From NCBI GenBank assembly GCA_028824415.1, contig JAPPDX010000070.1, forward strand, positions 16,719 to 80,718: DNA of 64,000 nt. The letters run 5' to 3'. Shown here piece after piece: positions 1-13,817 of this stretch; the first letter of the stretch is position 1, and every line of letters starts with the position of its first letter. The position numbers and the translations under genes are program-made. The notes beneath the pieces were generated by a model. The model saw only the letters and a program-made list of their open reading frames with translations, searched no databases and was not told the DNA's origin. This DNA comes from a bacterium. Its GTDB lineage: Bacteria; Actinomycetota; Acidimicrobiia; Acidimicrobiales; CATQHL01.

Positions 1-1
1 C

Positions 2-226
2 AACGACGACGCCTTCTTCGTCCGCCACGCCTACTTCAGCGGCGGTGGCGTCGATCCCTTCGACTCGCTCAAGCGGACCCTCCGCTCCGAAATCAACCTC
101 GAAGCCTGGGAAGCCCTCTACCGCACCGAGTCCCTACCCTTCCCCCGACCCGCCACCAACAAGATCGCCGTCAAGGCCATCAACCACTACGGCGACGAGG
201 CGCTACGCGTCTTCACGTTGCACTGA
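2..226 (+). CDS. DNA methyltransferase (N6-adenine/N4-cytosine type), C-terminal 74 codons only; gene starts upstream of window
   Basis: Frame 2 is open from the window edge to TGA 224-226. It is absent from the ORF track because there is no start codon in the window. The translation NDDAFFVRHAYFSGGGVDPFDSLKRTLRSEINLEAWEALYRTESLPFPRPATNKIAVKAINHYGDEALRVFTLH matches, from memory, the conserved C-terminal tail (..kIAVKvINhyGDEv..) of Mod-like DNA amino-methyltransferases. Needs an HMM check. Confidence 0.5.
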   Translation, partial: NDDAFFVRHAYFSGGGVDPFDSLKRTLRSEINLEAWEALYRTESLPFPRPATNKIAVKAINHYGDEALRVFTLH

Positions 227-247
227 GATTCGATCCCGACAAGTTCA

Positions 248-1147
248 ATGCCACGGACAAAGAAACAACACCTCGTCTCAGTCACTCTACTCAAGCGATG
301 GACAAAGAACGCCAGATTGAGACAAGTAGACTTGAAGACTCGAAAGCATAGTCTCGCGGTCCCGAACAAGGTCGCCTATTCGCGAGACTTCTCAACTCCT
401 ATCCAAGTACAACACACAGAAGAAGTGTGGCATGAGATTGAGTCGAGAGCTGGCGTCGCTCTGAAGAAAATATCAGAAGGTCGTCAATTTGATAGAGTTG
501 CAGTGACGGACCTAATCGCTCTTCATCTAGTACGAAGTCATGACATGATCGACGCGTGCCACAATCTCTTCAACAGCTACGAGCCGATTACACGTCTTCG
601 CAATCTGAGCTTCGAAGACTTGCAAAGGCACGCTTTGGAACGCACCGGCCTATACATCGTAGGTCCTGAGGGTGCCCTTATGGAACAGCAAGTGGTCACA
701 GAGCAGATTTACAAGCACTTTCGCGAAGATCTGTCCGAACACCTCCCGAAGCTACTAGCACAAGTGCAGGGATATTTCCGAAGCCTGAACCTAGAAATCA
801 TGACGTGCAACTCCGCTGGTGAACTAGTCATCGGAGACACTCCCGCTATCCCGATTGACTGGACAGGTACACGGACCGGCCTGGAATCAGGGGTATGGTT
901 ACGTGACGCGGCGGCTGTGTTCATGCCCTTGACGCCGACGATTCTAGCGTCGGTCGGGCTAGCAGAAGGCACAACATCACTCACCAGCAACGCGATCACC
1001 AGATTGAACCTAATGCAATGCCAACGCGCTACAAGACGAGTCTTTTGTTCCCCCGGCTCTGGGCTCCACAGATGGATACTGGACGAACATAAGAAGGTGC
1101 TCGACTCATTGGACAACCAAGGCATCGGCACTGAGGCCTCACAGTGA
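248..1147 (+). CDS. DUF4238-like protein (function unknown), low-G+C inserted gene
   Basis: ATG 248, 299 aa. KKQHLVSVTLLKRW near the N-terminus, then VWHEIESRAGVALKKI and LIALHLVRSHD, resemble the DUF4238 pattern (HYVPQFYLxxF ... iE ... fiaxQxxR). Hand-counted G+C is ~50% against ~70-75% in the flanks. It starts 21 nt after the methyltransferase stop. Its TGA (1145-1147) overlaps the next gene's GTG (GTGA). Confidence 0.7.
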   Translation: MPRTKKQHLVSVTLLKRWTKNARLRQVDLKTRKHSLAVPNKVAYSRDFSTPIQVQHTEEVWHEIESRAGVALKKISEGRQFDRVAVTDLIALHLVRSHDMIDACHNLFNSYEPITRLRNLSFEDLQRHALERTGLYIVGPEGALMEQQVVTEQIYKHFREDLSEHLPKLLAQVQGYFRSLNLEIMTCNSAGELVIGDTPAIPIDWTGTRTGLESGVWLRDAAAVFMPLTPTILASVGLAEGTTSLTSNAITRLNLMQCQRATRRVFCSPGSGLHRWILDEHKKVLDSLDNQGIGTEASQ

Positions 1148-2019
1148 CGACGCATCACACCAACGCCTTCCCCGACCTGGATCGTGACCTGCGGTTCATC
1201 CCGTTGGGTGTCGAGGAGCCGCGGGTGCTGTCGCCCACCCAGGTTCGCCGGTACAACGAGGTGGGTCATCTGTTCCCCATCGACATCTTCTCGCCGGGCG
1301 AGATCGCCGAGATCCGGGCCTACATCGATGACCTGTTGCCCAAGGCGCTGGCGGCGGGGTGGAACAGCTACGAGGTGGTCAACTGGCACAAGAGCTGTCG
1401 GGGCATCTGGGACATCGTGACCGAGCCCCGCATCATCGACGTTGTCGCGGACCTGCTGGGCGACTCGGTGATCCTGCGCCACAGCCACCTGTTCGCCAAG
1501 CTGCCCGGCGACGCCAAGCGGGTCGCCTGGCACCAGGACGCCTCCTACTGGCCGCTGTCGCCCAGCCGGGTGGTCACCGCCTGGCTGGCCATCGACGACG
1601 TCGACGTCGACAACTCCGCCATGCAGGTCATCCCCCGCTCACACCACCACGCCCAACTCGCCTTCCGCGACAGCGCCGCCGCCGAGAACAGCGTGCTGGT
1701 CCAGACCGTGGACGACCCCGGCAACTACGGCGACCCGCCCGTCGCCCTGGAGATGCGGGCCGGACAGATCTCGCTGCACAGCGACTGGATCCTGCACGGC
1801 TCCGAACCCAACCGCTCCAACCGGCGCCGCTGCGGGCTGGCGATGCGCTACCTCTCCGCGGACGTGCGCGCCTACCTCGACTGGAACACCAACTCCATCT
1901 GGTGCCGCGGCACCGACCCCACCGGCCACTGGGCCAACCACCCCCGCCCCGACGGCGAAACAATCCCCACACCCGACAACGCCCCCGACCCCGTCAGAGA
2001 CGCCTCCCTGAGCCGCTAG
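1144..2019 (+). CDS. phytanoyl-CoA dioxygenase (PhyH) family Fe(II)/2-oxoglutarate oxygenase
   Basis: 291 aa. WHQDASYWPL (HxD), a distal His in LHGSEPN and an Arg in NRRRCG are typical of the PhyH family. GC-rich like the backbone. Confidence 0.9.
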   Translation: MTTHHTNAFPDLDRDLRFIPLGVEEPRVLSPTQVRRYNEVGHLFPIDIFSPGEIAEIRAYIDDLLPKALAAGWNSYEVVNWHKSCRGIWDIVTEPRIIDVVADLLGDSVILRHSHLFAKLPGDAKRVAWHQDASYWPLSPSRVVTAWLAIDDVDVDNSAMQVIPRSHHHAQLAFRDSAAAENSVLVQTVDDPGNYGDPPVALEMRAGQISLHSDWILHGSEPNRSNRRRCGLAMRYLSADVRAYLDWNTNSIWCRGTDPTGHWANHPRPDGETIPTPDNAPDPVRDASLSR

Positions 2020-2026
2020 GGCCGAC
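1383..2026 (+). repeat. left copy of a 644-bp direct repeat (3' two-thirds of the PhyH gene plus 7 nt past the stop)
   Basis: Base-by-base comparison with 3241-3884 at a constant offset of 1858 nt. There are 0 differences over 1383-1640 and 14 substitutions over 1641-2019, with no indels. Confidence 0.95.
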
Positions 2027-2116
2027 GCCCCGTCGGCTGGGACAGAACTGGTACCGTCTCCTGAAGTCAGCCCGGAAGGCACATGAGCTTGTTCTGCACA
2101 TCACGGGGAGGCCACA

Positions 2117-3238
2117 GTGCAGCATTTCCTAGACCTCTTTACGCCCGAGACGTGGGACAAATATCGCTCGTCAGATCAAACCGTGACCGGCTTCCGGGTG
2201 CGCCAGCGCCGAATTGCAAACGAGCGGGTCAAGGAGGGGGATCTCCTGCTTTGCTGGCTCACCCGCATCTCGCGGTGGTGTGGCGTACTTGAAGTCACGT
2301 CGGAGGCATACGAAGACGAGAGTCCGATATTCGACGATCCAGATCCCTTCATTGTGCGATTCAAGGTAAAGCCCCTAGTCGTCTTGGATGCCGAGTTGTC
2401 GATTCCAATTCGAGAAGACGCCGTATGGAACGGTCTTACAATCACCAAGAAACATGAGAAGGACTACCGGTACTGGTCAGGGCCATTTCGTAGATCTCTA
2501 TATCATTTTGCTGATCCAGATGGCAGACTGCTGGTCAAGCTGCTCCGAGCGCAACAGGAAAGTCGTAGGACCTATCCGCTCTCGCAGAGCGAAGTCAAGA
2601 AACTCGCAGCTCCCAAAGTCCATTCCCCCCGCGGGGAGGTGGAAGTCGAAATTCCTGAGATTGAAGACCCAGAAGAGTCCCCGGAGGAAGCGCCAGCTGC
2701 CTCCAGCCAGGATGACGTGCGGGAGTCGATTCGGGTACAGGCAAGTGTGGCGGAGATCGGCGCCAAGATGGGCTTTGAGATTTGGGTGCCAAACGCGGAT
2801 CGTTCTCTGGTCATCTCTCAAGTCCCTGAATCGCTTCACAGCTCATTCTTGAAGAAGTTGCCACTTAATTACGAGGCCAACACTCTCCGGACTGTTGAAC
2901 AGATTGATGTGCTGTGGCTGAAGGGGCGTGCGATGGTACGCGCCTTCGAAATCGAACACACGACGGCGATCTACTCGGGGATCCTGCGAATGGCCGACTT
3001 GTTGGCCTTGCAGCCCAACATCGACATCCGCTTGAACATCGTGGCGCCGGAAGAAAAGCGCAACAAGGTCTTCGCAGAGATCAGGAGGCCCGTGTTCTCG
3101 CTTCTGGAGGGCAGACTCCTGCGCGAACAGTGTGCCTACCTGTCCTACGACTCAATCAAGAAAGTCAGCGCGGAGAAGTTTCTGTCGCACATGAACGACA
3201 CAATCATTGAAGAATACGAAGAGTTCGCCGACGTCTAG
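2117..3238 (+). CDS. EVE/PUA-like reader domain fused to a PD-(D/E)xK-type nuclease domain; putative modification-dependent (type IV-like) restriction enzyme
   Basis: GTG 2117 with a GGGGAGG SD 6 nt upstream; 373 aa. The N-terminal ~130 aa (KEGDLLLCWLTRISRWCGVLEVTSEAYEDESPIFDDPDPFIVRFKVKPLV) looks like an EVE/ASCH-type PUA fold. An acidic linker follows. The C-terminal ~160 aa carries IDVLWLKGRAMVRAFEIEHTTAIYSGILRMADL, a D...ExE-type nuclease core. Hand-counted G+C is ~47-50%. Confidence 0.7.
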   Translation: MQHFLDLFTPETWDKYRSSDQTVTGFRVRQRRIANERVKEGDLLLCWLTRISRWCGVLEVTSEAYEDESPIFDDPDPFIVRFKVKPLVVLDAELSIPIREDAVWNGLTITKKHEKDYRYWSGPFRRSLYHFADPDGRLLVKLLRAQQESRRTYPLSQSEVKKLAAPKVHSPRGEVEVEIPEIEDPEESPEEAPAASSQDDVRESIRVQASVAEIGAKMGFEIWVPNADRSLVISQVPESLHSSFLKKLPLNYEANTLRTVEQIDVLWLKGRAMVRAFEIEHTTAIYSGILRMADLLALQPNIDIRLNIVAPEEKRNKVFAEIRRPVFSLLEGRLLREQCAYLSYDSIKKVSAEKFLSHMNDTIIEEYEEFADV

Positions 3239-3240
3239 CT

Positions 3241-3877
3241 CTGGCACAAGAGCTGTCGGGGCATCTGGGACATCGTGACCGAGCCCCGCATCATCGACGT
3301 TGTCGCGGACCTGCTGGGCGACTCGGTGATCCTGCGCCACAGCCACCTGTTCGCCAAGCTGCCCGGCGACGCCAAGCGGGTCGCCTGGCACCAGGACGCC
3401 TCCTACTGGCCGCTGTCGCCCAGCCGGGTGGTCACCGCCTGGCTGGCCATCGACGACGTCGACGTCGACAACTCCGCCATGCAGGTCATCCCCCGCTCGC
3501 ACCACCACGCCCAACTCGCCTTCCGCGACAGCACCACAGCCGAGAACAGCGTGCTGGTCCAGACCGTGGACGACCCCGGCAACTACGGCGACCCGCCCGT
3601 CGCCCTGGAGATGCGGGCCGGACAGATCTCGCTGCACAGCGACTGGATCCTGCACGGCTCCGAACCCAACCGCTCCGACCGGCGCCGCTGCGGGCTGGCG
3701 ATGCGCTACCTCTCCGCGGACGTGCGCGCCTACCTCGACTGGAACACCAACTCCATCTGGTGCCGCGGCACCGACCCCACCGGCCACTGGGCCAACCACC
3801 CCCGCCCACCCGGCGAACACATCCCCACCCCCGACAACGCCCCCGACCCCGTCAGAGACGCCTCCCTCACCCGCTAG
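3241..3877 (+). pseudogene. 5'-truncated second copy of the PhyH dioxygenase (about codons 81-291); an internal GTG at 3275 could give a 200-aa product
   Basis: It lacks the first ~80 codons but retains WHQD, the distal His and the Arg. It differs from copy 1 by 6 aa. It is in the same reading frame as the upstream EVE-nuclease ORF, separated only by TAG 3236-3238 plus one codon. Confidence 0.65.
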
Positions 3878-3884
3878 GGCCGGC
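3241..3884 (+). repeat. right copy of the 644-bp direct repeat
   Basis: See the left copy. It begins 2 nt after the TAG of the EVE-nuclease gene. Similarity to copy 1 ends 7 nt after the PhyH stop. Confidence 0.95.
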
Positions 3885-3920
3885 GGCGGGGGTGGGCCGG
3901 CTCTGTGGAGCCGTCCCGAT

Positions 3921-4277
3921 TCAGGCGACTTGCGTGCTCCCGGTGGTCCCTGCGGCCGGGAGGCCGGAGGTCACAGGCGGGTCCTCTCGCCGGCTTCCGG
4001 GGGGACTGGTGGACACCATCTCCTGCAGTCGGGCGGAGACGAGCGATGCGTCCGGAACGCTTCCGGCGAGGAGGTCCGTGACGTGCGGAACCCAACTCGG
4101 ATCGGTCACGGTGAGCACCTCGATGCCGACGATGTTGTCCGAGCCGTCCCGATCCACATGGAGTGACGCGGTGAGCGAGTCGGTTCGGGCCACGTCGCCG
4201 TCACCGATCCGGATGTAACCGCAGTCGCTCTCGCTGTCGTACGAGTACCGCAGAGTGCTCACGTCGCTCAACTCCAC
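3921..4277 (-). CDS. DUF2283-like small protein
   Basis: LRYSYDSESDCGYIRIGDGDVARTDSL...HVDRDGSDNIVGIEVL fits the DUF2283 pattern (YDxeaDalYIrl...D.d..G.ivGIEiL). Start set at GTG 4277; an alternative GTG lies 5 codons later. The long N-terminal extension in the ORF track (to 4481) was rejected. Confidence 0.55.
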   Translation of the reverse strand: MELSDVSTLRYSYDSESDCGYIRIGDGDVARTDSLTASLHVDRDGSDNIVGIEVLTVTDPSWVPHVTDLLAGSVPDASLVSARLQEMVSTSPPGSRREDPPVTSGLPAAGTTGSTQVA

Positions 4278-4314
4278 ATCGCTGTGATGACGAGGATCGT
4301 CCGTCGGTCGGTGA

Positions 4315-4485
4315 TCACCGTGCGATCTCCGCGAGAGCGGTCTGCACGCGCTTCCGTGCCCGCGGGTCTGCCTCCACCTCGGCGTAGAAGTCGCGAGGGG
4401 TGATCTTGTGCTGCCACGCGTCAGGAGGAACCTCGTCGGTCGAGGCGTCATCCGAGGGCAGTCGTCTCTGTCGTGTCTCATCCAT
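4315..4485 (-). CDS. hypothetical small protein (56 aa)
   Basis: ATG 4485 with GGGAGG ~13 nt upstream. It sits 38 nt upstream of the DUF2283 gene on the same strand. No recognisable motif. Confidence 0.3.
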   Translation of the reverse strand: MDETRQRRLPSDDASTDEVPPDAWQHKITPRDFYAEVEADPRARKRVQTALAEIAR

Positions 4486-4508
4486 GCCGTGCCGGTGCCT
4501 CCCAGGCC

Positions 4509-4543
4509 AGAAAAAGAAAGGCCCGGCCCCCGCAGGGACCGGG
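4509..4543 (-). terminator. intrinsic terminator downstream of the NYN gene
   Basis: The minus strand reads CCCGGUCCC-UGCG-GGGGCCGGG (9-bp stem including one G-U pair, 4-nt loop), followed by CCUUUCUUUUUCU. Confidence 0.6.
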
Positions 4544-4611
4544 TCAGTTATGGCAAGTATAGCCAACTGGCCTCTCTCGGCGCGAGCTTCCGAGGATGGT
4601 CTGCGCGGCTG

Positions 4612-5262
4612 TTACCAGCCCGCTGGCTTCCGAACACCGCCCACGACCTCCGGCAACTGATCGTCGAAGAAGTCCTCGGCCGTGAGCCGGTACCACCAGT
4701 GCCCGCCCACACCGTCGTTTGGCTCACCCCTGAGATGTCTCGCAGTAGACCGTCCCCGCGGATTCGCCGTGCCCGTCGGCACATGGATCCGAGCATGCTG
4801 CGCCGGTAGGCGCAAGTCGCCGTCGTTCGAGACCAACACCGCCGCGTCGATCGCCTCGGTGTGAATGTCGATCAGTAGATGCGACGCCACGTTGACGTCG
4901 GAACCCTTCTCATTGGGAACCTCGCGGGTCTCGCGTACGCCGTCTTCGCCGGCCTGCCTGTGGACCTTGCGCAGCGCAAAGTGTCCCAACTCGATCGTGA
5001 TCCGGTCGTCCGCGCGCAGCGCGGCCAGGTAGGCCTCCTGGCAGTGGCGGCCATCCGGGTCGACCTCGCCCCTGATCAGCGCTGTGCAGTACACGAGGCG
5101 ATGCAACGTGGCGCCCTTCGCCGTCCACGCAGCGTTCCTTGCGATCATCCGTTCGACCGATGCTGCCAGGTCGAACCAGCGCCAGCCGGACGCGTCGCGG
5201 CCGCAAAGGTGTCTCCCGCCGTAGTAGACGTTCAGGCCGTCAACGTACGCTCCGACTCGCAA
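4612..5262 (-). CDS. NYN (LabA-like) domain protein, predicted RNase
   Basis: 216 aa. VGAYVDGLNVYY ... KGSDVNVASHLLIDIHTEAIDAAVLVSNDGDL is the NYN/PIN-like acidic-residue pattern. Confidence 0.8.
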   Translation of the reverse strand: MRVGAYVDGLNVYYGGRHLCGRDASGWRWFDLAASVERMIARNAAWTAKGATLHRLVYCTALIRGEVDPDGRHCQEAYLAALRADDRITIELGHFALRKVHRQAGEDGVRETREVPNEKGSDVNVASHLLIDIHTEAIDAAVLVSNDGDLRLPAQHARIHVPTGTANPRGRSTARHLRGEPNDGVGGHWWYRLTAEDFFDDQLPEVVGGVRKPAGW

Positions 5263-5380
5263 GTCGCCCAGACTAACGACGATCTTTCACCATCGGAGAA
5301 ATATACTCATAGCGCGAGTTATACGCTTGGGTCACCATTAGAGTGCGCGCACAGGACCGTTGAGGCGGCTGGGGGATGAG

Positions 5381-5548
5381 ATGGGCGAGAAGCGGCTTGT
5401 CGTTCGGAATCGACACGGCGATTGGGAGGTGCGCATCCCCGGAGCGCACAAGCCGGTGTCGCAGCACGGGTCGCTCGACGACGCCAGGCGAGCGGCGAAG
5501 GAGTTCGTGGCCAAATCCGGAGGCGGCGAGGTAGTCGTCCACGTCTGA
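5381..5548 (+). CDS. DUF2188-like small protein
   Basis: ATG 5381 with a GGGGGA SD. RHGDWEVRIPGAHKPVSQHGSLDDARRAAKEFVAKSGGGEVVVH fits the DUF2188 pattern (W.V....+..s.h.tk.eA...A+..A...g.e+.+H). Confidence 0.65.
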   Translation: MGEKRLVVRNRHGDWEVRIPGAHKPVSQHGSLDDARRAAKEFVAKSGGGEVVVHV

Positions 5549-5601
5549 TCTCCGGCAGCCGGCGGGCGGGTTGTCCGGATGGTGCGCCTTAGGCTTCGAT
5601 C

Positions 5602-6678
5602 GTGGTCGGTGCGGACTTGCCGCAGTTCTTCAAGGACCCGGAGCCGTTCATCTGTCATCCCGATGGCGCTCTGGAGACTCGGCTTGAACTCCAGCAAGGC
5701 TTGATCACGCCGAATCGGCTCTTCTATGTGCTGCACAACGGGGGGCGGGGCGCCGATGTCGACGTCTCGACGTGGCGCCTGCGCGTGGAGGGCGACGCTG
5801 TCGGGCGACCGCTGGACATCACCTACGAGGACATCCGGGGCATGCCCAGCCGCAGCCTCGTGTGCTACCTGGAGTGTGCCGGCAACCACCGGGCGATGTT
5901 CGATCTCCTGAAGGGTCGGCCCGCGGGAAGCCCGCCGTGGGGTACCGGCGCCGTCGGCAACGCGGAATGGACCGGCGTGTCGCTGAGGCACGTGCTGGCC
6001 GAGGCGGGGATCGCCGACAGCGCGGTCAGCGTGCTGCTGGTGGGCCTCGACGCCACCGCACCCGAAGGCGGGTACCGGAGAGTCCTGCCGGTGCACAAGG
6101 CGATGCATCCCGACACGCTGCTGGCCTATGAAATGAACGGCGAGGCTCTCCCCCGCGATCACGGTTTCCCGGTGCGGGCCGTGGTGCCCGGTTGGATCGG
6201 CGCCAACAGCATCAAATGGCTCGGGCGCATCGTCGTGTCCGCCGAGCAGATCTGGACGCGCAACAACACCACCAACTACGTGCTGATCGGCGAGGACTAC
6301 CCCGCTGAGGGACCTGCGATGGGCCAGCCGATCACGACCCTGGTGATCAACAGCGCGCTGGCGCTGCCGTGGCCGGCGGAACTGAGCGCGGGCCCGCACC
6401 TGATCCGGGGGTATGCCCGGTCGCCCCACGGTGCCATCACCGGCGTGGAATGGAGCTCCGACTCGGGCGTCACCTGGTCCGGCGCCTCGGTCGAACCATC
6501 GCCGTCGCGGTACTCGTGGTCACCCTTCACGTTCGAGTGGATGGCCGAGCCCGGTGAGCACACCCTCATGACTCGAGCTTTCGACGCCGCCGGCAACACG
6601 CAGCCGGATGAGATCCCGTTCAACAAGCGGGGTTACCTGTTCAACCAGCCGCTCCCCCATCCGATCCGGGTGGGGTGA
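5602..6678 (+). CDS. sulfite oxidase-like molybdopterin oxidoreductase (Mo-binding plus dimerisation domains)
   Basis: 358 aa. YLECAGNHRA (Mo-ligand Cys), GFPVRAVVPGWIGANSIKWL and a C-terminal Ig-like dimerisation region. No obvious Tat signal. Confidence 0.85.
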   Translation: MVGADLPQFFKDPEPFICHPDGALETRLELQQGLITPNRLFYVLHNGGRGADVDVSTWRLRVEGDAVGRPLDITYEDIRGMPSRSLVCYLECAGNHRAMFDLLKGRPAGSPPWGTGAVGNAEWTGVSLRHVLAEAGIADSAVSVLLVGLDATAPEGGYRRVLPVHKAMHPDTLLAYEMNGEALPRDHGFPVRAVVPGWIGANSIKWLGRIVVSAEQIWTRNNTTNYVLIGEDYPAEGPAMGQPITTLVINSALALPWPAELSAGPHLIRGYARSPHGAITGVEWSSDSGVTWSGASVEPSPSRYSWSPFTFEWMAEPGEHTLMTRAFDAAGNTQPDEIPFNKRGYLFNQPLPHPIRVG

Positions 6679-7959: not shown

Positions 7960-8787
7960 GTGGACAAGGTCGTGTTGATCACCGGGGCATCGTCGGGCAT
8001 CGGCCGTGAGGCGGCGATCCTGCTCGGCGAGCAGGGGCACACCGTCTACGCCGGCGCCCGCCGGGTGGACCGGCTGGCCGAGTTGGCCGACCTGGCCGAC
8101 GGTCGTATCACCGCCGTCGAGATGGACGTCACAAGCGACGGCGACAACGAGCGGGCCGTCGACCGGATCATCGAGAGCGAGGGCCGAATCGACGTCCTCA
8201 TCAACAACGCCGGCCGCGGCCTCTACGGACCCGTCGAGCAGGTCTCGCTCGACGACGCTCGCTACCAGTTCGAGGTGAACATCTTCGGTCTGGCGCAACT
8301 CACCCAACTCGTCCTGCCGCACATGCGGGCGGCGAGCTCGGGGCGGATCGTCAACATCTCCTCGATGGTCGGGCGGATCTACACGCCCATGGGGGCCTGG
8401 TACATCGCCACCAAGCACGCCCTGGAAGGCTGGTCGGACTGCCTCCGCTACGAGACCGCTCCCTTCGGCATCCAGGTGGTGCTCGTTCAGCCGGGCTCGA
8501 TCCATACCGAGTTCGCCTCCCTGACAGCGAACCAGTTGAACGAACTCCCCGCCGACAGCCCCTACCGGGCACACATCGACATGCTCCGCAAGCGGGTCAG
8601 CGACCCCGGCGCCGCCGATCGCCCGGTCGGGGCGCGGGAGGTCGCCGAGGTGTACGTCAAGGCCGCGACCACCCGTCGCCCCCGCCGTCGCTACGCCACC
8701 GGAGCGCGGGCGCGGCCATGGATGATGACCAGAAGGTTTCTCGGCGACCGGGCCTTCGAATACCTGCTGCACCGCAGCGTGCGGTGA
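7960..8787 (+). CDS. short-chain dehydrogenase/reductase (SDR), tandem paralog 1 of 5
   Basis: TGASSGIG, NNAG and S...YIATK (YxxxK); 275 aa. Confidence 0.9.
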   Translation: MDKVVLITGASSGIGREAAILLGEQGHTVYAGARRVDRLAELADLADGRITAVEMDVTSDGDNERAVDRIIESEGRIDVLINNAGRGLYGPVEQVSLDDARYQFEVNIFGLAQLTQLVLPHMRAASSGRIVNISSMVGRIYTPMGAWYIATKHALEGWSDCLRYETAPFGIQVVLVQPGSIHTEFASLTANQLNELPADSPYRAHIDMLRKRVSDPGAADRPVGAREVAEVYVKAATTRRPRRRYATGARARPWMMTRRFLGDRAFEYLLHRSVR

Positions 8788-8831
8788 CGGTGGTTCGGCG
8801 CCGGCGAGGGCACCGAAGAGAGGATCGCTCA

Positions 8832-9659
8832 ATGGTCAAGGTCATCCTGATCACCGGCGCATCGACGGGCATCGGGCGTGAGGCCGCGATCCTGCTCGGC
8901 AAGCAGGGGCACCGCGTCTACGCCGGCGCCCGCCGGCTGGAGCGCATGGCCGACCTGGCGGAGCGGGCCGGCGGTGGCGTCACCGCGGTCGAGATGGACG
9001 TCACCAAGGCCGGCGACAACGAACGGGTCGTCGAGCAGATCATCCGGAACGAGGGCCGGATCGACGTCCTCATCAACAACGCCGGCTTCGGCCTCTACGG
9101 GCCCATCGAGGACCTCTCGATCGACGATGCCCGCTACCAATTCGAGGTGAACCTCTTCGGCCTGGCGCAACTCACCCAACTGGTCCTGCCGCACATGCGG
9201 GCCCAGGGCTCGGGGCGCATCGTCAACGTCTCATCCATGGTCGGCAAGGTCTTCATGCCGCTGGCAGCCTGGTACGACGCCACCAAACACGCCCTCGAGG
9301 GCTGGTCGGACTGCCTGCGCCTCGAGACCGCACCCTTCGGCATCCAGGTGGTCCTCATCGAGCCGGGCGCCATCAAGACCGAGTTCGACGACGTGAGGAT
9401 GGCCCAGCTGGAGACGCTCCCCGCCGATTCGGCGTACCGCAGCCAGATCGACGCGTTCAAACTGCTCGTGGACGCCCCGCCGGACCTCGACCGCCAGACC
9501 CCGCCCGAAGTGGTCGCCCGGGTGTACGCCAAGGCCGCCACCGCCCGCCGGCCCCGGCGGCGCTACGTCACCGGCAAGTACGCACGGTCCTGGATGTTCG
9601 TCCGGAGGTGGCTCGGCGATGGGGCCTACGAACTGATCCTGCGCCGGGCCTACCGGTGA
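8832..9659 (+). CDS. SDR, tandem paralog 2 of 5
   Basis: Start moved to ATG 8832 (MVKVILITGASTGIG) by alignment with the paralogs. NNAG, YDATK. Confidence 0.9.
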   Translation: MVKVILITGASTGIGREAAILLGKQGHRVYAGARRLERMADLAERAGGGVTAVEMDVTKAGDNERVVEQIIRNEGRIDVLINNAGFGLYGPIEDLSIDDARYQFEVNLFGLAQLTQLVLPHMRAQGSGRIVNVSSMVGKVFMPLAAWYDATKHALEGWSDCLRLETAPFGIQVVLIEPGAIKTEFDDVRMAQLETLPADSAYRSQIDAFKLLVDAPPDLDRQTPPEVVARVYAKAATARRPRRRYVTGKYARSWMFVRRWLGDGAYELILRRAYR

Positions 9660-9779
9660 TGGCGATCCGGCGCCACCGAGCGCACCGGAGGCACCGGAAG
9701 GGGACTCCGGGGGTGTCGAGCGCACTGCTGGTACCGGGCGCATCGGCGTCACCGGGGGCGCTGGAAAGGGGCTAGCGCA

Positions 9780-10598
9780 ATGGGCAAGGTCGTGCTGATC
9801 ACCGGTGCGTCGGCAGGCATAGGACGTGAAGCGGCGATCCTGATGGCGAAGACGGGCCACACCGTGTACGCCGGGGCCCGGCGGGCCGACCGGCTGGCCG
9901 AGCTGGCGGAGCACGGCATCACCCCGGTGGAGATGGACGTCAGCGAGGGCGACGACAACGAGCGGGCCGTCGATCGGGTCATCGCCGCCGAGGGGCGGAT
10001 CGACGTCCTCATCAACAACGCCGGCTTCGGGCTGAACGGGCCCGTCGAGGACATCCCGATCGACGACGCCCGCTACCAGTTCGAAGTGAACCTCTTCGGC
10101 CTGGCGCAACTCACCCAACTCGTCCTGCCGCACATGCGCGCCCAAGGCTCAGGCCGCATCGTGAACGTCTCGTCGGTGGTCGGCAGGGTCTTCCTGCCCC
10201 TGGGGGCCTGGTACAACGCAACCAAGCACGCCCTGGAGGGGTGGTCGGACTGCCTGCGCTACGAGACCGCTCCGTTCGGCATCCAGGTCGTCGTCATCCA
10301 ACCGGGCGCCATCAGGACCGAGTTCGGCGACGTGGCCTGGACCGGGATGGAGAAACACGTCGACGACACCGCCTACGGGGCAGTGGTGGAGCCATTCCGC
10401 AGGCTGCGAGCCAACCCGCGCCTCAAGGGCCGCTCCACCGACGCCGCCGTGGTCGCCAAGGTGTACCTCATGGCCGCGACCGCCCGCCGGCCACGCCGCC
10501 GCTACGTCACGGGGGCGTTCGCCCGACCGGCGATGTTCCTCAGGAAATGGTTCGGCGACGGGGTCTACGAGTTCGCGTTGCGCCGAGTCGCCCGCTGA
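9780..10598 (+). CDS. SDR, tandem paralog 3 of 5
   Basis: TGASAGIG, NNAG, YNATK; 272 aa. Confidence 0.9.
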   Translation: MGKVVLITGASAGIGREAAILMAKTGHTVYAGARRADRLAELAEHGITPVEMDVSEGDDNERAVDRVIAAEGRIDVLINNAGFGLNGPVEDIPIDDARYQFEVNLFGLAQLTQLVLPHMRAQGSGRIVNVSSVVGRVFLPLGAWYNATKHALEGWSDCLRYETAPFGIQVVVIQPGAIRTEFGDVAWTGMEKHVDDTAYGAVVEPFRRLRANPRLKGRSTDAAVVAKVYLMAATARRPRRRYVTGAFARPAMFLRKWFGDGVYEFALRRVAR

Positions 10599-10629
10599 TT
10601 CATCTCCACACGACACGGGGAGTCACACC

Positions 10630-11448
10630 ATGAGCAAGGTCATCCTGATCACCGGTGCGTCGGCCGGCATCGGCCGTGAGGCGGCGATCCTGATGGCGCA
10701 GAAGGGCCACAAGGTGTACGCCGGCGCCCGGCGGATGGACCGCCTGGCCATGCTGGCCGACCACGGCGTCATCCCTGTGCAGATGGACGTCACCGCGGGC
10801 ACCGACAACGAGCGGGCCGTCAATCAGGTCATCGACACCGAGGGGCGGATCGACGTCCTCATCAACAACGCCGGCTTCGGCGTCTACGGGCCCGTCGAGG
10901 ATGTCCCCCTCGACGACGCCCGCTACCAGTTCGAGGTGAACCTCTTCGGCCTCGCCCACCTCACCCAGCTCGTGCTGCCGCACATGCGCGCCCAGGGCTC
11001 GGGACGCATCGTCAACGTCTCGTCGGTGGGCGGCAGAATCTTCATACCGCTGGGGGCCTGGTATCACGCCACCAAGCACGCCCTCGAGGGCTGGTCGGAC
11101 TGCCTGCGCTACGAGACCGCTCCCTTCGGCATCCAGGTCGTGATCATCCAACCGGGCGCCATCAAGACCGAGTTCGGCGACGTGGCCAACGTGGCGCTGG
11201 ACAGGTACGCCGTCGACACGGCCTATGGGGATCTGGTCGGTCTGTTCCTCAAGTTGCGGGACAACTCGCGCACCATGGACCGCGCAACCGACGCCTCGGT
11301 GCTCGCCAAGGTGTACCTCAAGGCCGCAACCGCCCGCCGGCCGCGCCGCCGCTACGTCAAGGGGGCGTTCGCCCGACCTGTCCTGTTCATCAGGAAATGG
11401 TTCGGCGACGGGGTGTACGAGTTCGCGCTGCGCGGCATCGTCCGCTGA
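10630..11448 (+). CDS. SDR, tandem paralog 4 of 5
   Basis: TGASAGIG, NNAG, YHATK; 272 aa. The leader cacacgacacggggagtcacacc is shared with paralog 5. Confidence 0.9.
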   Translation: MSKVILITGASAGIGREAAILMAQKGHKVYAGARRMDRLAMLADHGVIPVQMDVTAGTDNERAVNQVIDTEGRIDVLINNAGFGVYGPVEDVPLDDARYQFEVNLFGLAHLTQLVLPHMRAQGSGRIVNVSSVGGRIFIPLGAWYHATKHALEGWSDCLRYETAPFGIQVVIIQPGAIKTEFGDVANVALDRYAVDTAYGDLVGLFLKLRDNSRTMDRATDASVLAKVYLKAATARRPRRRYVKGAFARPVLFIRKWFGDGVYEFALRGIVR

Positions 11449-11536
11449 CCCATCTCCCTGACGTGTCGGGACGACCGCCTGCCGCGGGCTTCCCCGTCTG
11501 GCAGGATCACCCCCACACGACAAGGGGAGTCACACG

Positions 11537-12355
11537 ATGAGCAAGGTCATCCTGATCACCGGTGCGTCGGCGGGCTTGGGCCGTGAGGCGGCGATCCTGC
11601 TGGCGGAGCAGGGTCACACGGTGTACGCCGGCGCTCGCCGGGTGGATCGGCTGGTCGAATTGGCCGACCACGGCGTCACCGCGGTGGAAATGGACGTCAC
11701 GAAGGCCGCCGACAACGAGCGGGCCGTCAGCCGGATCCTCGACAACGAGGGGCGGATCGACGTCCTCATCAACAACGCCGGCTTCGGCCTCTACGGACCC
11801 GTCGAGGACATCCCGATCGACGAGGCTCGCTACCAGTTCGAGGTGAACCTGTTCGGCCTGGCCCACCTCACCCAGTTCGTCCTGCCGCACATGCGGGCGC
11901 AGGGCTCGGGTCGCATCGTCAACATCTCCTCGATGGTGGGCAAGGTCTTCACGCCGATGGGGGCCTGGTACGTCGCCACCAAGCACGCCCTGGAGGGCTG
12001 GTCGGACTGCCTGCGCCTCGAGGCCGCGCCGTTCGGCATCCAGGTCGTCCTCATCGAACCCGGTGCCATCCACACCGAGTTCGGCGACGTGATGGTGGCC
12101 CTCATGGAGAAGTTCCCCGACGCCAGCCCCTATCACTCTCAGATCGAATCGCTCAGCAGCCTGATGGCAGACCCGGGTGCCGTCGAGCACCGTACGCATG
12201 TGACGGCCGCCGCCAAGGTCTACGCCAAGGCCGCCACCACCCGCCGCCCACGCCGGCGCTACGTCACCGGAAAGCTGGCACGGCCCTGGATGTACACCCG
12301 GAAGTGGTTCGGCGACGCCGTCTACGAGTTCACCGTCTGCCGCGGACTCCTCTGA
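11537..12355 (+). CDS. SDR, tandem paralog 5 of 5
   Basis: TGASAGLG, NNAG, YVATK; 272 aa. The last 19 nt including the TGA form unit 1 of the downstream 32-bp repeat. Confidence 0.9.
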   Translation: MSKVILITGASAGLGREAAILLAEQGHTVYAGARRVDRLVELADHGVTAVEMDVTKAADNERAVSRILDNEGRIDVLINNAGFGLYGPVEDIPIDEARYQFEVNLFGLAHLTQFVLPHMRAQGSGRIVNISSMVGKVFTPMGAWYVATKHALEGWSDCLRLEAAPFGIQVVLIEPGAIHTEFGDVMVALMEKFPDASPYHSQIESLSSLMADPGAVEHRTHVTAAAKVYAKAATTRRPRRRYVTGKLARPWMYTRKWFGDAVYEFTVCRGLL

Positions 12356-13683: not shown

Positions 13684-13817
13684 GACTGTCACACGAGTCG
13701 CATAGAGTACGGGTACCGGTCAATGACCCCTGATGCGACGGGGGTCGCTTCCCCAACCGGCTTGTCGGCCCGGCCGACCCGAGTCCGACAGCGATGCGTT
13801 CCCTGGGGGAGCCACCG

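What the first reader, a model, noticed from the sequence alone, without database searches (positions are those of the whole stretch)
1..3884. Mosaic same-strand gene string: MTase tail, low-GC DUF4238, PhyH dioxygenase, low-GC EVE-nuclease, second PhyH 3' copy (candidate composite DNA-modification/defence locus)
Two ~50% G+C genes sit inside a ~70-75% G+C backbone with essentially no spacing of their own. DUF4238 starts 21 nt after the methyltransferase stop, and its TGA overlaps the dioxygenase GTG. The EVE-nuclease ends 2 nt before the repeated dioxygenase segment. All five units are co-directional, so the foreign genes must be read with the host-like ones. The set combines a DNA methyl writer, an Fe(II)/2OG oxygenase (a fold that includes base oxidisers), a modified-base reader fused to a nuclease, and a protein of unknown function. 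I do not recognise this combination as a described defence system. The conservative alternative is that the dioxygenase is only the insertion target and the genes are functionally unrelated.
Basis: partly seen in the sequence, partly recalled or inferred. Interest (0 to 1): 0.75.

Follow-up and report, generated by a model that had tools for sequence, protein, structure and literature searches.

The report
Defence genes stacked around repeated dioxygenase gene
This stretch is not one new defence machine but the edge of a defence island in a sponge-associated actinobacterium, where separate, largely known anti-phage modules sit between whole and broken copies of an ordinary dioxygenase gene that seems to act as a recombination anchor.

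Summary
The proposed four-part modification/defence system is not supported.

- **Type III-like R-M module.** The methyltransferase tail and DUF4238 are the last two genes of a three-gene module, ResIII helicase–Mod–DUF4238. The module recurs as one 6.7-kb block (84% nt identity) in another metagenome, without PhyH or EVE.
- **EVE-nuclease.** This is a complete, solitary EVE + NmeDI_C protein, a predicted type IV restriction enzyme. The family has more than 5,000 members. In the two other taxa sampled it sits in unrelated contexts.
- **PhyH.** This is a metabolic dioxygenase gene. In 37 loci from other lineages it is single-copy among transport and metabolic genes.
- **PhyH repeats.** Only in the window's Acidimicrobiales clade is PhyH iterated: 51 co-directional copies or fragments in 19 loci, including two complete chromosomes. 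The copies alternate with diverse defence cassettes.
- **The 3' PhyH copy.** It is a relic of an EVE–PhyH unit that is intact in relatives. It was truncated by a deletion at a CTGGC microhomology, and one relative from a different sample shares that junction.

No integrase or att-like site was found. The new elements are the PhyH-repeat scaffold and the recurrent link between DUF4238 and helicase–methylase systems.

The parts
2..226 (+). 3' end (74 codons) of a 941-aa N6/N4 DNA methyltransferase. It is the Mod gene of a Type III-like R-M module whose ResIII helicase gene lies just upstream of the window.
   Evidence: PADLOC MTase_III matches positions 912-982 of 983 (E 8e-20). The full gene in L001 scores E 1e-230 and is preceded by a 1001-aa ResIII protein.
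248..1147 (+). DUF4238 gene, the third gene of the ResIII-Mod-DUF4238 module. Its last ~7 codons (IGTEASQ) are not native.
   Evidence: Pfam PF14022 E 8e-15. The same 21-nt gap and gene order occur in L087/L088, in a 6.7-kb colinear block of 84.5% identity that ends about 40 nt before the stop. Relatives end ...LDSMxxxxGxN.
1118..1143 (+). Probable remnant of the PhyH leader, with a GAGG Shine-Dalgarno sequence 7 nt before the GTG. It is now translated as the DUF4238 C-terminus. The rest of the conserved PhyH leader and promoter region is missing.
   Evidence: Partial similarity to the last ~25 nt of the L009/L053 leader. Clear homology to those loci starts at 1145. This is an inference, not a firm alignment.
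1144..2019 (+). PhyH_A, a full-length Fe(II)/2OG dioxygenase of the PhyH family and a host-type metabolic gene.
   Evidence: Pfam PhyH scores 95 bits. GC3 is 0.94. It is 80-96% identical to Acidimicrobiales relatives and 55-75% identical to homologues in other sponge-symbiont phyla.
2025..2043 (.). Junction between the PhyH_A trailer and the EVE cassette. It contains a GCCGACG-CCC-CGTCGGC hairpin.
   Evidence: PhyH homology ends at about 2024-2029. Homology to the EVE upstream region of L005-L007 starts at about 2039-2048.
2044..2116 (+). Conserved leader of the EVE gene, presumed to carry its promoter and RBS.
   Evidence: It is 90% identical to L006/L007, while the whole cassette alignment (window 2042-3245, leader plus CDS) is 76.6% identical.
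2117..3238 (+). Complete EVE (PUA-like reader) + NmeDI_C/PD-(D/E)XK-type nuclease fusion, a predicted modification-dependent (type IV) restriction enzyme.
   Evidence: Pfam EVE and PADLOC REase_II hits and a precomputed NmeDI_C hit. It covers 100% of a family of about 375 aa with more than 5,000 members. The modelled N-domain matches PH1033 (TM 0.77) and YTH domains.
3239..3245 (.). Deletion junction, 'ct' followed by CTGGC. The microhomology links the native EVE 3' flank (ttCTGGCgcc) to PhyH nt 1383 (aaCTGGCaca).
   Evidence: Alignment A2. L006/L007 keep EVE-leader-full PhyH. The window and L005 share the truncated form.
3241..3885 (+). PhyH_B, a 5'-truncated copy (codons 81-291 plus an 8-nt trailer), likely a pseudogene.
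   Evidence: Identity to PhyH_A is 100% over 1383-1640, 98.3% over 1641-1940 and 88.6% over the last 79 nt. It lacks the first 80 codons and the leader.
3921..4481 (-). DUF2283-domain gene, the recurrent right-hand neighbour of PhyH tails in related islands.
   Evidence: Pfam DUF2283. The block at window 3801-4311 recurs twice in L005 and once in L011.
4612..5262 (-). Gene with a weak NYN-domain match (below Pfam's cutoff), the last island-type gene. Ordinary chromosome follows: a molybdopterin oxidoreductase from 5602 and DUF1801 from 6697.
   Evidence: Pfam hits. The DUF1801 gene is shared with the right end of the L010 island.

Best explanation
Window 1-3884 is the right-hand part of a defence island in a sponge-associated Acidimicrobiales bacterium. 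It holds three independent units, not one system.

**1. ResIII helicase-Mod-DUF4238 module.** This is a Type III-like R-M operon. The Mod protein methylates host DNA and the helicase-type Res subunit attacks unmodified DNA. DUF4238 is a conserved third gene of unknown biochemistry. The DUF4238 family includes a protein that defends on its own.

**2. PhyH.** This is an ordinary metabolic Fe(II)/2OG dioxygenase gene. In this clade it has been copied repeatedly and now serves as the recombination scaffold of the island. Defence cassettes lie between co-directional PhyH copies. Homologous recombination between copies, within a genome and with imported DNA, adds, swaps and homogenises units. Microhomology deletions erode copies from their 5' ends.

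**3. A self-contained EVE-nuclease.** The PUA-like domain reads a modified base, and the PD-(D/E)XK-type domain cuts DNA carrying it. This catches phages whose modified DNA escapes classical R-M.

**How the window's arrangement arose**
- The window consists of two such units, [R-M + DUF4238]-PhyH_A and [EVE]-PhyH_B.
- An illegitimate join fused the DUF4238 3' end to the last ~25 nt of the PhyH leader. PhyH_A is therefore probably now read with, and translationally coupled to, DUF4238.
- A 5-nt (CTGGC) microhomology deletion removed the leader and first 80 codons of PhyH_B.

**Shown versus inferred.** Shown: the gene identities, the conservation of the module, the arrays and the junction anatomy. 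Inferred: RecA-type exchange as the driver, all enzyme activities, and co-transcription.
For: **The R-M + DUF4238 module is a unit**
- L001 4134-10860 aligns with L087 4131-10860 at 84.5% identity as one colinear block.
- The 21-nt MTase-to-DUF4238 gap is the same, and transposase genes rather than PhyH lie downstream.
- DUF4238 GC3 is 0.56-0.62 beside partners at 0.82-0.84 in L001 and L087, and 0.58 beside 0.71-0.82 in the Hma-type module L089.
- All seven contexts found for this DUF4238 subfamily lie next to helicase + methylase systems. These are Type III-like (window/L001, L087/L088), Hma-like (L089, L171, L172) and MmeI-like + SNF2 (L090).

**The EVE-nuclease is autonomous**
- The gene is full length within a family of more than 5,000 members.
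- In other taxa it is solitary in unrelated contexts.
- The fold search supports an EVE/YTH-like N-domain.
- EVE-PD(D/E)XK fusions are already predicted type IV enzymes (PMC7641849).

**PhyH is a metabolic gene**
- Neighbours in 37 loci from other lineages (143 neighbour proteins) are MFS and ABC transporters, transketolase, amidohydrolases and other PhyH paralogues.
- In the single-copy Acidimicrobiales locus L013 it is followed by psuG.

**PhyH is the island scaffold**
- 19 loci carry PhyH at 80% nt identity or more, and 11 of them have more than one segment.
- There are 51 segments in all. All 32 extra segments are co-directional with the main copy.
- The loci include the complete chromosomes OZ220687.1 and OY760933.1.
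- Between the segments lie RloB/AAA_21, AAA_21/DUF4276, SMODS, KwaB-like, HerA-like, UvrD-PDDEXK, ASCH, HTH/Gp49, BrxL, HsdM and SNF2-NOV_C genes.

**Junction history**
- L006/L007 keep EVE-leader-full PhyH. The window and L005 share the CTGGC deletion junction.

**Recombination between copies**
- Copies within one genome are usually each other's nearest relatives, at 94.8-98.8% identity.
- L009d is closer to the window's copies (96%) than to its own genome's copies (90.7%). L011b is an outlier at 82-85%.
- winA versus winB is mosaic: 100%, 98.3% and 88.6% across three segments.

**No site-specific machinery was found**
- The Pfam-annotated loci contain no tyrosine or serine integrase, and only one IS110 transposase.
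- There are no tRNA genes.
- There is no general junction motif.
Against: - No reads were available, so the tandem PhyH_A-EVE-PhyH_B order on one molecule rests on assembly. It is supported by conserved junctions in relatives.
- An alternative assembly has C instead of T at 1398 and 1443 in the upstream-linked copy. This points to strain mixture or partial collapse of the repeat.
- Homologous recombination as the driver is inferred from anatomy only. The event that first duplicated PhyH is unknown.
- Only ±10 kb around each relative could be read, so an integrase further away cannot be excluded.
- Distant DUF4238 proteins (25-29% identity) on actinomycete plasmids have no adjacent annotated methylase. 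The R-M link may therefore be a habit of this subfamily rather than a functional dependence.
- The EVE Pfam score is only 3 bits above the cutoff, and the catalytic lysine of a classical PD-(D/E)XK motif was not identified.
Confidence: 0.72

Rival explanations
1. The methyltransferase, DUF4238, the PhyH oxygenase and the EVE-nuclease form one composite DNA-modification and defence system. A base is written, oxidised and then read by the nuclease.
For: All genes are co-directional and tightly packed. DUF4238 and PhyH_A overlap by GTGA. An RBS-like GAGG precedes PhyH_A. The oxygenase fold family includes base oxidisers (general knowledge).
Against: - The R-M + DUF4238 block occurs without PhyH or EVE.
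- In the two other taxa sampled, the EVE-nuclease occurs without any of the other genes.
- PhyH relatives in other lineages sit in metabolic contexts.
- In the same clade PhyH is mostly present as broken fragments beside many other unrelated cassettes.
- The tight spacings are explained by deletion junctions.
- A type IV nuclease that read the host's own modification would be self-toxic.
Confidence: 0.04
2. Assembly artefact. The second PhyH copy, or the placement of EVE, is a mis-join of strain variants. The real genome has one PhyH and no tandem structure.
For: Other assemblies of the sample break exactly at the repeat. The first 258 nt of the two copies are identical. L001 shows two SNPs that are absent from both window copies.
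Against: - Both EVE junctions are assembled independently in two other assemblies (L003, L004). Any path through them needs PhyH sequence on both sides of EVE.
- The EVE-to-PhyH nt 1383 junction also exists in L005, from a different sample.
- Complete chromosome-level MAGs of relatives carry 4-6 PhyH segments within 20 kb.
- The two tails differ at 9 of 79 positions and resemble different relatives.
Confidence: 0.06
3. Site-specific integration. Cassettes are inserted one after another by an integrase at an att site at the 3' end of PhyH. Each element carries a replacement gene end, as islands at tRNA genes do.
For: PhyH fragments mostly keep the natural 3' end (22 of 51 segments end at the gene end), and cassettes start within about 10-40 nt after the stop. 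All fragments are co-directional.
Against: - No integrase was found in any annotated locus.
- Left boundaries are scattered over at least 15 positions.
- At least one boundary is demonstrably a secondary deletion at a microhomology.
- Candidate motifs (CGCCGGCGG, GGTCRAG) are not general at junctions.
- Full-length copies with their own leaders are also repeated.
Confidence: 0.1
4. PhyH has been co-opted as a shared component of defence in this clade, for example by modifying a nucleotide or metabolite used by several cassettes. That would explain why an intact copy is always kept in the island.
For: Nearly all well-covered islands retain at least one full-length PhyH with a conserved leader. 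PhyH GC3 is very high at 0.94.
Against: - Orthologues in other lineages are in metabolic contexts.
- The single-copy relative L013 has PhyH beside psuG.
- Most extra copies are decayed.
- The neighbouring cassettes are of kinds described as complete systems without such a partner.
Confidence: 0.06

Closest known systems
Defence islands and core-gene-flanked defence hotspots
   Same: A variable set of unrelated anti-phage systems is clustered at one chromosomal site. The content differs between close strains. L053 has PhyH 96% identical to the window's but a completely different upstream region.
   Different: The homology that frames the cassettes is not a pair of different core genes. It is one gene iterated many times, whole and truncated, inside the island.
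Integron cassette arrays, including defence cassettes in sedentary chromosomal integrons
   Same: A co-directional array of short gene cassettes is separated by a repeated element, which allows cassettes to be gained and lost.
   Different: There is no IntI, attI or attC. The repeated element is a ~0.9-kb protein-coding gene of variable extent, cassettes are not uniformly oriented, and the presumed exchange is by homologous recombination.
Orphan-fragment arrays behind rhs/cdiA genes, pilS silent cassettes, and partial 3'-CS duplications in complex class 1 integrons
   Same: A full-length gene is followed by co-directional 5'-truncated copies. The repeats promote recombination and carry adjacent cargo.
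   Different: In rhs, cdiA and pilS arrays the variable information is the gene's own 3' end. Here the PhyH fragments are near-identical and the variable information is unrelated genes between them. No ISCR-type element was found.
PUA-superfamily modification-dependent restriction enzymes (the EVE-HNH enzyme VcaM4I; predicted EVE-PD(D/E)XK enzymes of Bell et al. 2020, PMC7641849)
   Same: An N-terminal EVE/PUA-like reader is fused to a C-terminal nuclease in a single solitary gene without a cognate methylase.
   Different: The nuclease is of the NmeDI_C type, not HNH. Neither the specificity nor the activity is known.
Rst_DUF4238, the single-gene anti-T7 system from a P2 hotspot (Rousset et al. 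2022, PMC9122126)
   Same: A protein of about 300 aa made up of the DUF4238 domain, located in a defence hotspot.
   Different: The match to the PADLOC DUF4238 model is only marginal (E 0.036). This subfamily always sits at the end of, or next to, helicase + methylase operons.
Type III restriction-modification systems and the Hma (helicase-methylase-ATPase) systems of PADLOC
   Same: A large N6/N4 methylase (MTase_III, E 1e-230) is paired with a ResIII-helicase protein. Relatives of the DUF4238 gene follow HmaA/B/C.
   Different: The gene order is res then mod, then a third gene. Matches to the REase_III models are weak (E 2e-06).

Membership tests
Type IV (modification-dependent) restriction enzyme of the PUA-nuclease fusion kind | N-terminal PUA-superfamily (EVE/SRA/YTH/ASCH) reader domain | tested here: met
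   Pfam EVE scores 26 bits against a cutoff of 23. The AlphaFold model, whose residues 1-160 mostly have pLDDT 77-97, matches the EVE protein PH1033 (E 2e-08, TM 0.77) and YTH domains.
Type IV (modification-dependent) restriction enzyme of the PUA-nuclease fusion kind | C-terminal nuclease domain with an intact catalytic motif | tested here: inconclusive
   PADLOC REase_II (E 1.7e-14, residues 200-334) and precomputed NmeDI_C support a nuclease domain. D264, E278 and E280 are invariant in 34 homologues, but no classical ExK lysine was assigned. The top 50 PDB fold matches all align to the N-terminal reader domain, and none is to a nuclease.
Type IV (modification-dependent) restriction enzyme of the PUA-nuclease fusion kind | Stands alone, with no cognate methyltransferase required | tested here: met
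   Homologues in L173 and L174 have no adjacent methylase. In L005-L007 the neighbours are RloB/AAA_21 and PhyH.
Type IV (modification-dependent) restriction enzyme of the PUA-nuclease fusion kind | Cleaves only DNA that carries a modified base | not testable with these tools
   This needs biochemistry or phage challenge.
Type III restriction-modification system | Mod subunit: N6/N4 DNA methyltransferase of the Type III kind | tested here: met
   PADLOC MTase_III PDLC03632 E 1.4e-230 and Pfam N6_N4_Mtase E 2e-28, for the full gene in L001. The window tail matches the end of the same model.
Type III restriction-modification system | Res subunit: SF2 helicase with an endonuclease motif | tested here: inconclusive
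   Pfam ResIII gives E 3.6e-09, but the REase_III models match only weakly (E 2e-06 to 4e-04). The nuclease motif was not examined. The gene order, res before mod, is atypical.
Rst_DUF4238 single-gene defence | DUF4238 domain covering the protein | tested here: met
   PF14022 matches residues 6-269 to profile positions 1-279 of 281, at 55 bits.
Rst_DUF4238 single-gene defence | Match to the defence-system model, and a stand-alone genomic habit | tested here: not met
   PADLOC DUF4238-Pers gives only E 0.036. All 7 contexts of this subfamily adjoin helicase + methylase systems. More distant plasmid homologues are solitary.
Integron | intI integrase, attI, and attC sites bounding the cassettes | tested here: not met
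   No integrase domain appears in the Pfam-annotated loci. There is no recurrent junction motif. Boundaries are PhyH sequences of variable extent.
Integrase-driven genomic island at a gene 3' end | Tyrosine or serine recombinase, and a constant att core at both ends | tested here: not met
   No recombinase was found within ±10 kb. There are no tRNA genes. Left boundaries are scattered, and one is a microhomology deletion. More distant flanks could not be read.
PhyH family Fe(II)/2OG dioxygenase | PhyH domain with the HxD...H iron-binding residues | tested here: met
   PF05721 scores 95 bits over residues 38-229. The WHQDASYW and HSDWILHG motifs are visible in the translation and were the conserved peptide patterns used.

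The most novel reading that the evidence does not exclude
The iterated PhyH gene works as portable homology arms, giving an integrase-free, RecA-dependent cassette array. On this reading, any DNA fragment of the form PhyH-cassette-PhyH taken up from a relative can be inserted into, or swapped within, the island by ordinary double crossover. Recombination between direct copies would delete cassettes or excise them as circles. Populations of this sponge-symbiont clade could then shuffle defence genes much as an integron does, without a dedicated recombinase. A second, smaller novelty is that DUF4238 may be a functional third component of helicase-methylase defence systems (Type III-like, Hma and MmeI-like).
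Probability: 0.3. Interest if true: 0.7.

Novelty: new variant of a known kind. Interest (0 to 1): 0.42.

Why it matters
- **The individual genes are largely ordinary.** They are of largely known kinds: a Type III-like R-M, a DUF4238 defence gene and an EVE-nuclease of the type IV kind. No new modification chemistry is implied.
- **The architecture is worth keeping.** In one clade of uncultured sponge symbionts a defence island is organised by dozens of co-directional copies and stumps of a single metabolic gene. There is evidence for both import between lineages and homogenisation within a genome.
- **If confirmed, it would show a simple route to an integron-like cassette array.** A bacterium would need nothing but homologous recombination. 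That would also explain why short-read assemblies of such islands shatter.
- **The DUF4238 association gives a testable handle.** Its recurrent position at the end of three different helicase-methylase systems suggests how to probe a defence protein whose mechanism is unknown.

Tried and rejected
- **Recombination-site motifs.** CGCCGGCGG after stop codons and AGGTCGAGG about 30 nt after the PhyH stop looked promising in a few copies. They are only the inherited PhyH trailer and are not general at cassette boundaries.
- **PhyH leader motif.** The conserved GC..TAGNTTGC motif is more simply read as a -10-like promoter element than as an att site. This is an inference.
- **Promoter and terminator scan.** The sigma-70 and terminator scan of window 1-4600 gave nothing above shuffled expectation.
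- **RNA searches.** Rfam found nothing in window 1-6000. No tRNA or tmRNA genes occur in six island loci.
- **EVE leader structure.** A possible anti-SD hairpin in the EVE leader has no covariation support.
- **DUF4238 structure.** The model was poor (pLDDT 62) and had no PDB fold match, so no mechanism could be derived.
- **PDB sequence search.** The EVE-nuclease found nothing by sequence.
- **Family-wide DUF4238 association.** Distant DUF4238 homologues on actinomycete plasmids have no adjacent methylase. The association is therefore not family-wide.
- **Circular element.** A free 1,858-bp circle (PhyH fragment + EVE) was considered as an alternative path through the assembly graph. It cannot be excluded without reads, but it would itself be the expected excision product of the tandem form.

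Full report

- Frame 2 of 2-226 is the C-terminal 74 residues of a methyltransferase, matching positions 912-982 of 983 in PADLOC MTase_III (E 8e-20).
- 248-1147 encodes a DUF4238 protein (PF14022, 55 bits against a cutoff of 27).
- 1144-2019 encodes a full PhyH-family dioxygenase (95 bits).
- 2117-3238 encodes a 373-aa protein with an N-terminal EVE domain (26 bits against a cutoff of 23) and a C-terminal restriction-nuclease domain. The nuclease domain matches PADLOC REase_II (E 1.7e-14) and carries a precomputed Pfam NmeDI_C hit.
- 3241-3885 repeats 1383-2027.

The 21-nt gap, the GTGA stop/start overlap and the 2-nt gap are exact. DUF4238 and the EVE gene have 52% and 55% G+C (GC3 0.56 and 0.67). 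The PhyH copies have 69-70% G+C (GC3 0.94-0.96), and the window as a whole has 69.4%.

**Is the arrangement real?** Two other assemblies of the same biosample break at the repeat. One contig (L001) ends 81 nt into it. The EVE gene sits on its own short contigs, L003 and L004. Those contigs are 100% identical to window 1895-3340 and 1988-3286. Both junctions were therefore assembled independently: the A-type PhyH tail into the EVE leader, and the EVE stop into PhyH nt 1383.

The second junction also exists in L005, a relative from a different sample (EVE 90% aa identity). Relatives assembled as complete chromosomes (OZ220687.1, OY760933.1) carry several PhyH segments within 20 kb.

I could not map reads. 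L001 has C rather than T at window 1398 and 1443, so some strain mixing or repeat collapse is possible.

**Upstream context and the DUF4238 gene.** L001 extends the window 9.7 kb to the left. It carries a BilC-like JAB protein, an E1/E2-like protein, small ORFs, a 1001-aa ResIII helicase protein, the 941-aa methylase (MTase_III E 1e-230) and then DUF4238.

The last three genes form a conserved module. In L087/L088, from other samples, the same three genes occur in the same order with the same 21-nt gap. They align to L001 as a single 6.7-kb block of 84.5% nucleotide identity. Transposase genes follow, not PhyH. In both copies of this module DUF4238 has GC3 0.56-0.62 beside partners at 0.82-0.84, and in the Hma-type module L089 it has 0.58 beside partners at 0.71-0.82. 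Its composition is therefore an old property of the module, not a sign of recent insertion here.

More distant members of the subfamily (53-60% identity) sit in two other settings:
- at the 3' end of Hma-type operons with an SNF2 helicase, a DUF1156 methylase and a DUF499 ATPase (L089, L171, L172);
- next to an MmeI-like methylase with SNF2 helicases (L090).

All seven contexts found therefore adjoin a helicase + methylase system. Homologues at 25-29% identity on actinomycete plasmids are solitary. A DUF4238 protein from a P2 hotspot defends against T7 on its own (PMC9122126). The link to R-M-like systems is recurrent in this subfamily, but it has not been shown to be a functional dependence.

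**The DUF4238-PhyH junction.** Homology to the module ends about 40 nt before the window's stop codon. Relatives end '...LDSMxxxxGxN*', while the window reads '...LDSLDNQGIGTEASQ*'.

Relatives' full-length PhyH genes have a conserved ~50-nt leader with a TAGNTT element. The window lacks it. Clear homology to the L009/L053 type of PhyH starts at 1145. The 25 nt before that resemble the end of the same leader, including the ribosome-binding site.

The GTGA overlap is therefore the product of an illegitimate join. The join fused the DUF4238 reading frame to the stump of the PhyH leader. PhyH_A has probably lost its own promoter and is read with DUF4238 (inference).

**The EVE gene.**
- It is full length. 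It covers 100% of a family of more than 5,000 proteins of about 375 aa that are 55-60% identical across Chloroflexota, Deinococcota, Gemmatimonadota and others.
- In a structure model built on 34 homologues, the N-terminal 160 residues are confidently folded. They match the EVE protein PH1033 (TM 0.77) and the YTH m6A readers.
- D264, E278 and E280 in the nuclease half are invariant.
- In other taxa the gene stands alone. In one it follows LexA-DnaE2-SRAP, and in another it lies next to an oligopeptide transporter.
- EVE-PD(D/E)XK fusions have already been catalogued as putative type IV restriction enzymes (PMC7641849).

It is thus a new member of a known kind.

**PhyH.** Homologues at 55-75% aa identity occur in MAGs of many phyla, many of them recognisably from sponge metagenomes. 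In 37 such loci the two genes on each side (143 proteins) are mostly transporters, transketolase subunits, amidohydrolases, aldehyde dehydrogenases and further PhyH paralogues. No defence family is among the commonest. In L013, a single-copy Acidimicrobiales relative, PhyH is followed by psuG. PhyH is an ordinary metabolic gene.

**The array.** PhyH is repeated only in the window's close relatives.
- Among 19 loci with PhyH at 80% nucleotide identity or more, 11 carry more than one segment.
- There are 51 segments in all. All 32 additional segments point the same way as the main copy.
- 22 of the 51 segments reach the natural 3' end of the gene. Left ends of the truncated segments are scattered over at least 15 positions.

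Between the segments lie diverse defence-type genes:
- RloB + AAA_21, and AAA_21 + DUF4276;
- a SMODS cyclase;
- a KwaB-like pair, and a HerA-like ATPase;
- UvrD-PD-(D/E)XK;
- ASCH proteins, and HTH + Gp49 pairs;
- BrxL, HsdM and an SNF2-NOV_C helicase.

No tyrosine or serine recombinase was seen, and only one IS110 transposase. There are no tRNA genes. The sequence motifs I suspected at the junctions turned out to be the inherited PhyH trailer and promoter.

**History of the window's second copy.** In L006 and L007 the EVE gene is followed by 'TAAttCTGGCgccggcggg...', a leader and a full PhyH. In the window and L005 it is followed by 'TAGctCTGGCacaag...', which is PhyH from nt 1383, where the intact gene reads 'aaCTGGCacaag'.

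PhyH_B is therefore what remains of an EVE-PhyH unit after a deletion of about 290 bp between two CTGGC pentamers. The deletion predates the split of the window and L005 lineages, or was passed between them.

Yet PhyH_B is 100% identical to PhyH_A over 258 nt and 98.3% over the next 300 nt, but only 88.6% over the last 79 nt. The two tails resemble different relatives.

Across genomes, copies in one genome are usually each other's nearest relatives (94.8-98.8%). There are clear exceptions. L009d is closest to the window's copies, and L011b is an outlier. This is the pattern expected from gene conversion within genomes plus import of PhyH-flanked DNA between lineages.

**Interpretation.** The string is a stack of independent modules: [Type III-like R-M + DUF4238]-PhyH_A-[EVE type IV enzyme]-ΔPhyH_B-[DUF2283...].

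The tight spacing that suggested a composite operon results from deletion junctions. Functionally the modules are complementary in the usual way. R-M attacks unmodified DNA, and a type IV enzyme attacks modified DNA. They do not need each other, and PhyH has no evident role.

The most interesting aspect is the use of one repeated gene as the frame of a defence island. A linear fragment PhyH-cassette-PhyH can insert into even a single PhyH copy by an ordinary double crossover. The left arm would be the gene's 5' part and the right arm its 3' part. Direct repeats also allow unequal exchange and excision. This mechanism is inferred, not shown.

**Limits.**
- No read data were available.
- Only ±10 kb around each relative could be read.
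- My ORF calls in the relatives are heuristic.
- The DUF4238 model was too poor for any fold inference.
- All enzyme activities are predictions from domain content.

Noticed in passing
window 7960-12352: Five tandem short-chain dehydrogenase (adh_short) paralogues, 67-78% aa identical to each other. This is a local gene-family expansion in the ordinary chromosome just right of the island.
   Followed up: partly
window 2044-2116: The EVE gene's 75-nt leader is 90% identical to L006/L007, while the whole cassette alignment (leader plus CDS) is 76.6% identical. A possible hairpin pairs GTCTCCT with the GGGGAGG ribosome-binding site, but no covariation supports it.
   Followed up: partly
window 3236-3245 (also L005 11119-11130): The EVE stop codon TAG and the truncated PhyH_B are in the same reading frame, so stop-codon read-through would give an EVE-PhyH fusion. 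This is probably a coincidence (chance 1 in 3), but the shared junction preserves it in L005.
   Followed up: no
window 1398 and 1443 (L001 11151 and 11196): Another assembly of the same sample has C at both positions in the copy linked to DUF4238. The window has T in both PhyH copies. This points to a strain variant or to partial collapse of the repeat in the window's assembly.
   Followed up: partly
L001 372-3010 (about 6.7-9.4 kb upstream of the window start): A BilC-like JAB protein and an E1/E2-like protein (weak PADLOC hits) suggest a Bil-type ubiquitin-like conjugation defence system at the left of the island.
   Followed up: partly
L012-L086 and L091-L170 (PhyH relatives): This PhyH is 55-75% aa identical across MAGs of Dehalococcoidia, Poribacteria, Gamma- and Alphaproteobacteria, Gemmatimonadota, Latescibacterota and Spirochaetia, many from sponge metagenomes. 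That is unusually high across phyla and suggests horizontal spread of a niche-specific metabolic gene.
   Followed up: partly
L173 1528-7128: In a 3.2-Mb genome the EVE-nuclease homologue lies directly after LexA, an error-prone DnaE2-type polymerase and an SRAP (abasic-site sensor) gene.
   Followed up: no
L104 452-2457: A PhyH gene is interrupted after about codon 57 by about 1.1 kb carrying a 152-aa ORF. The same 152-aa ORF length precedes a PhyH copy in L010 (3762-4220).
   Followed up: no
L087 10946-20888: The ResIII-Mod-DUF4238 module in this unrelated contig is followed by at least seven transposase genes or fragments (rve, DDE_3, ISL3, IS605 OrfB), forming an insertion-sequence graveyard.
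   Followed up: no
L005 18649-19127 and 20489-20950; window 3801-4311: The block 'PhyH tail + DUF2283 gene on the opposite strand' is itself duplicated within L005 and recurs in L011. Repeat units larger than PhyH alone are therefore being copied.
   Followed up: partly
window 13794-15296: A DUF222 + HNH endonuclease gene of the kind common in actinobacterial genomes.
   Followed up: no
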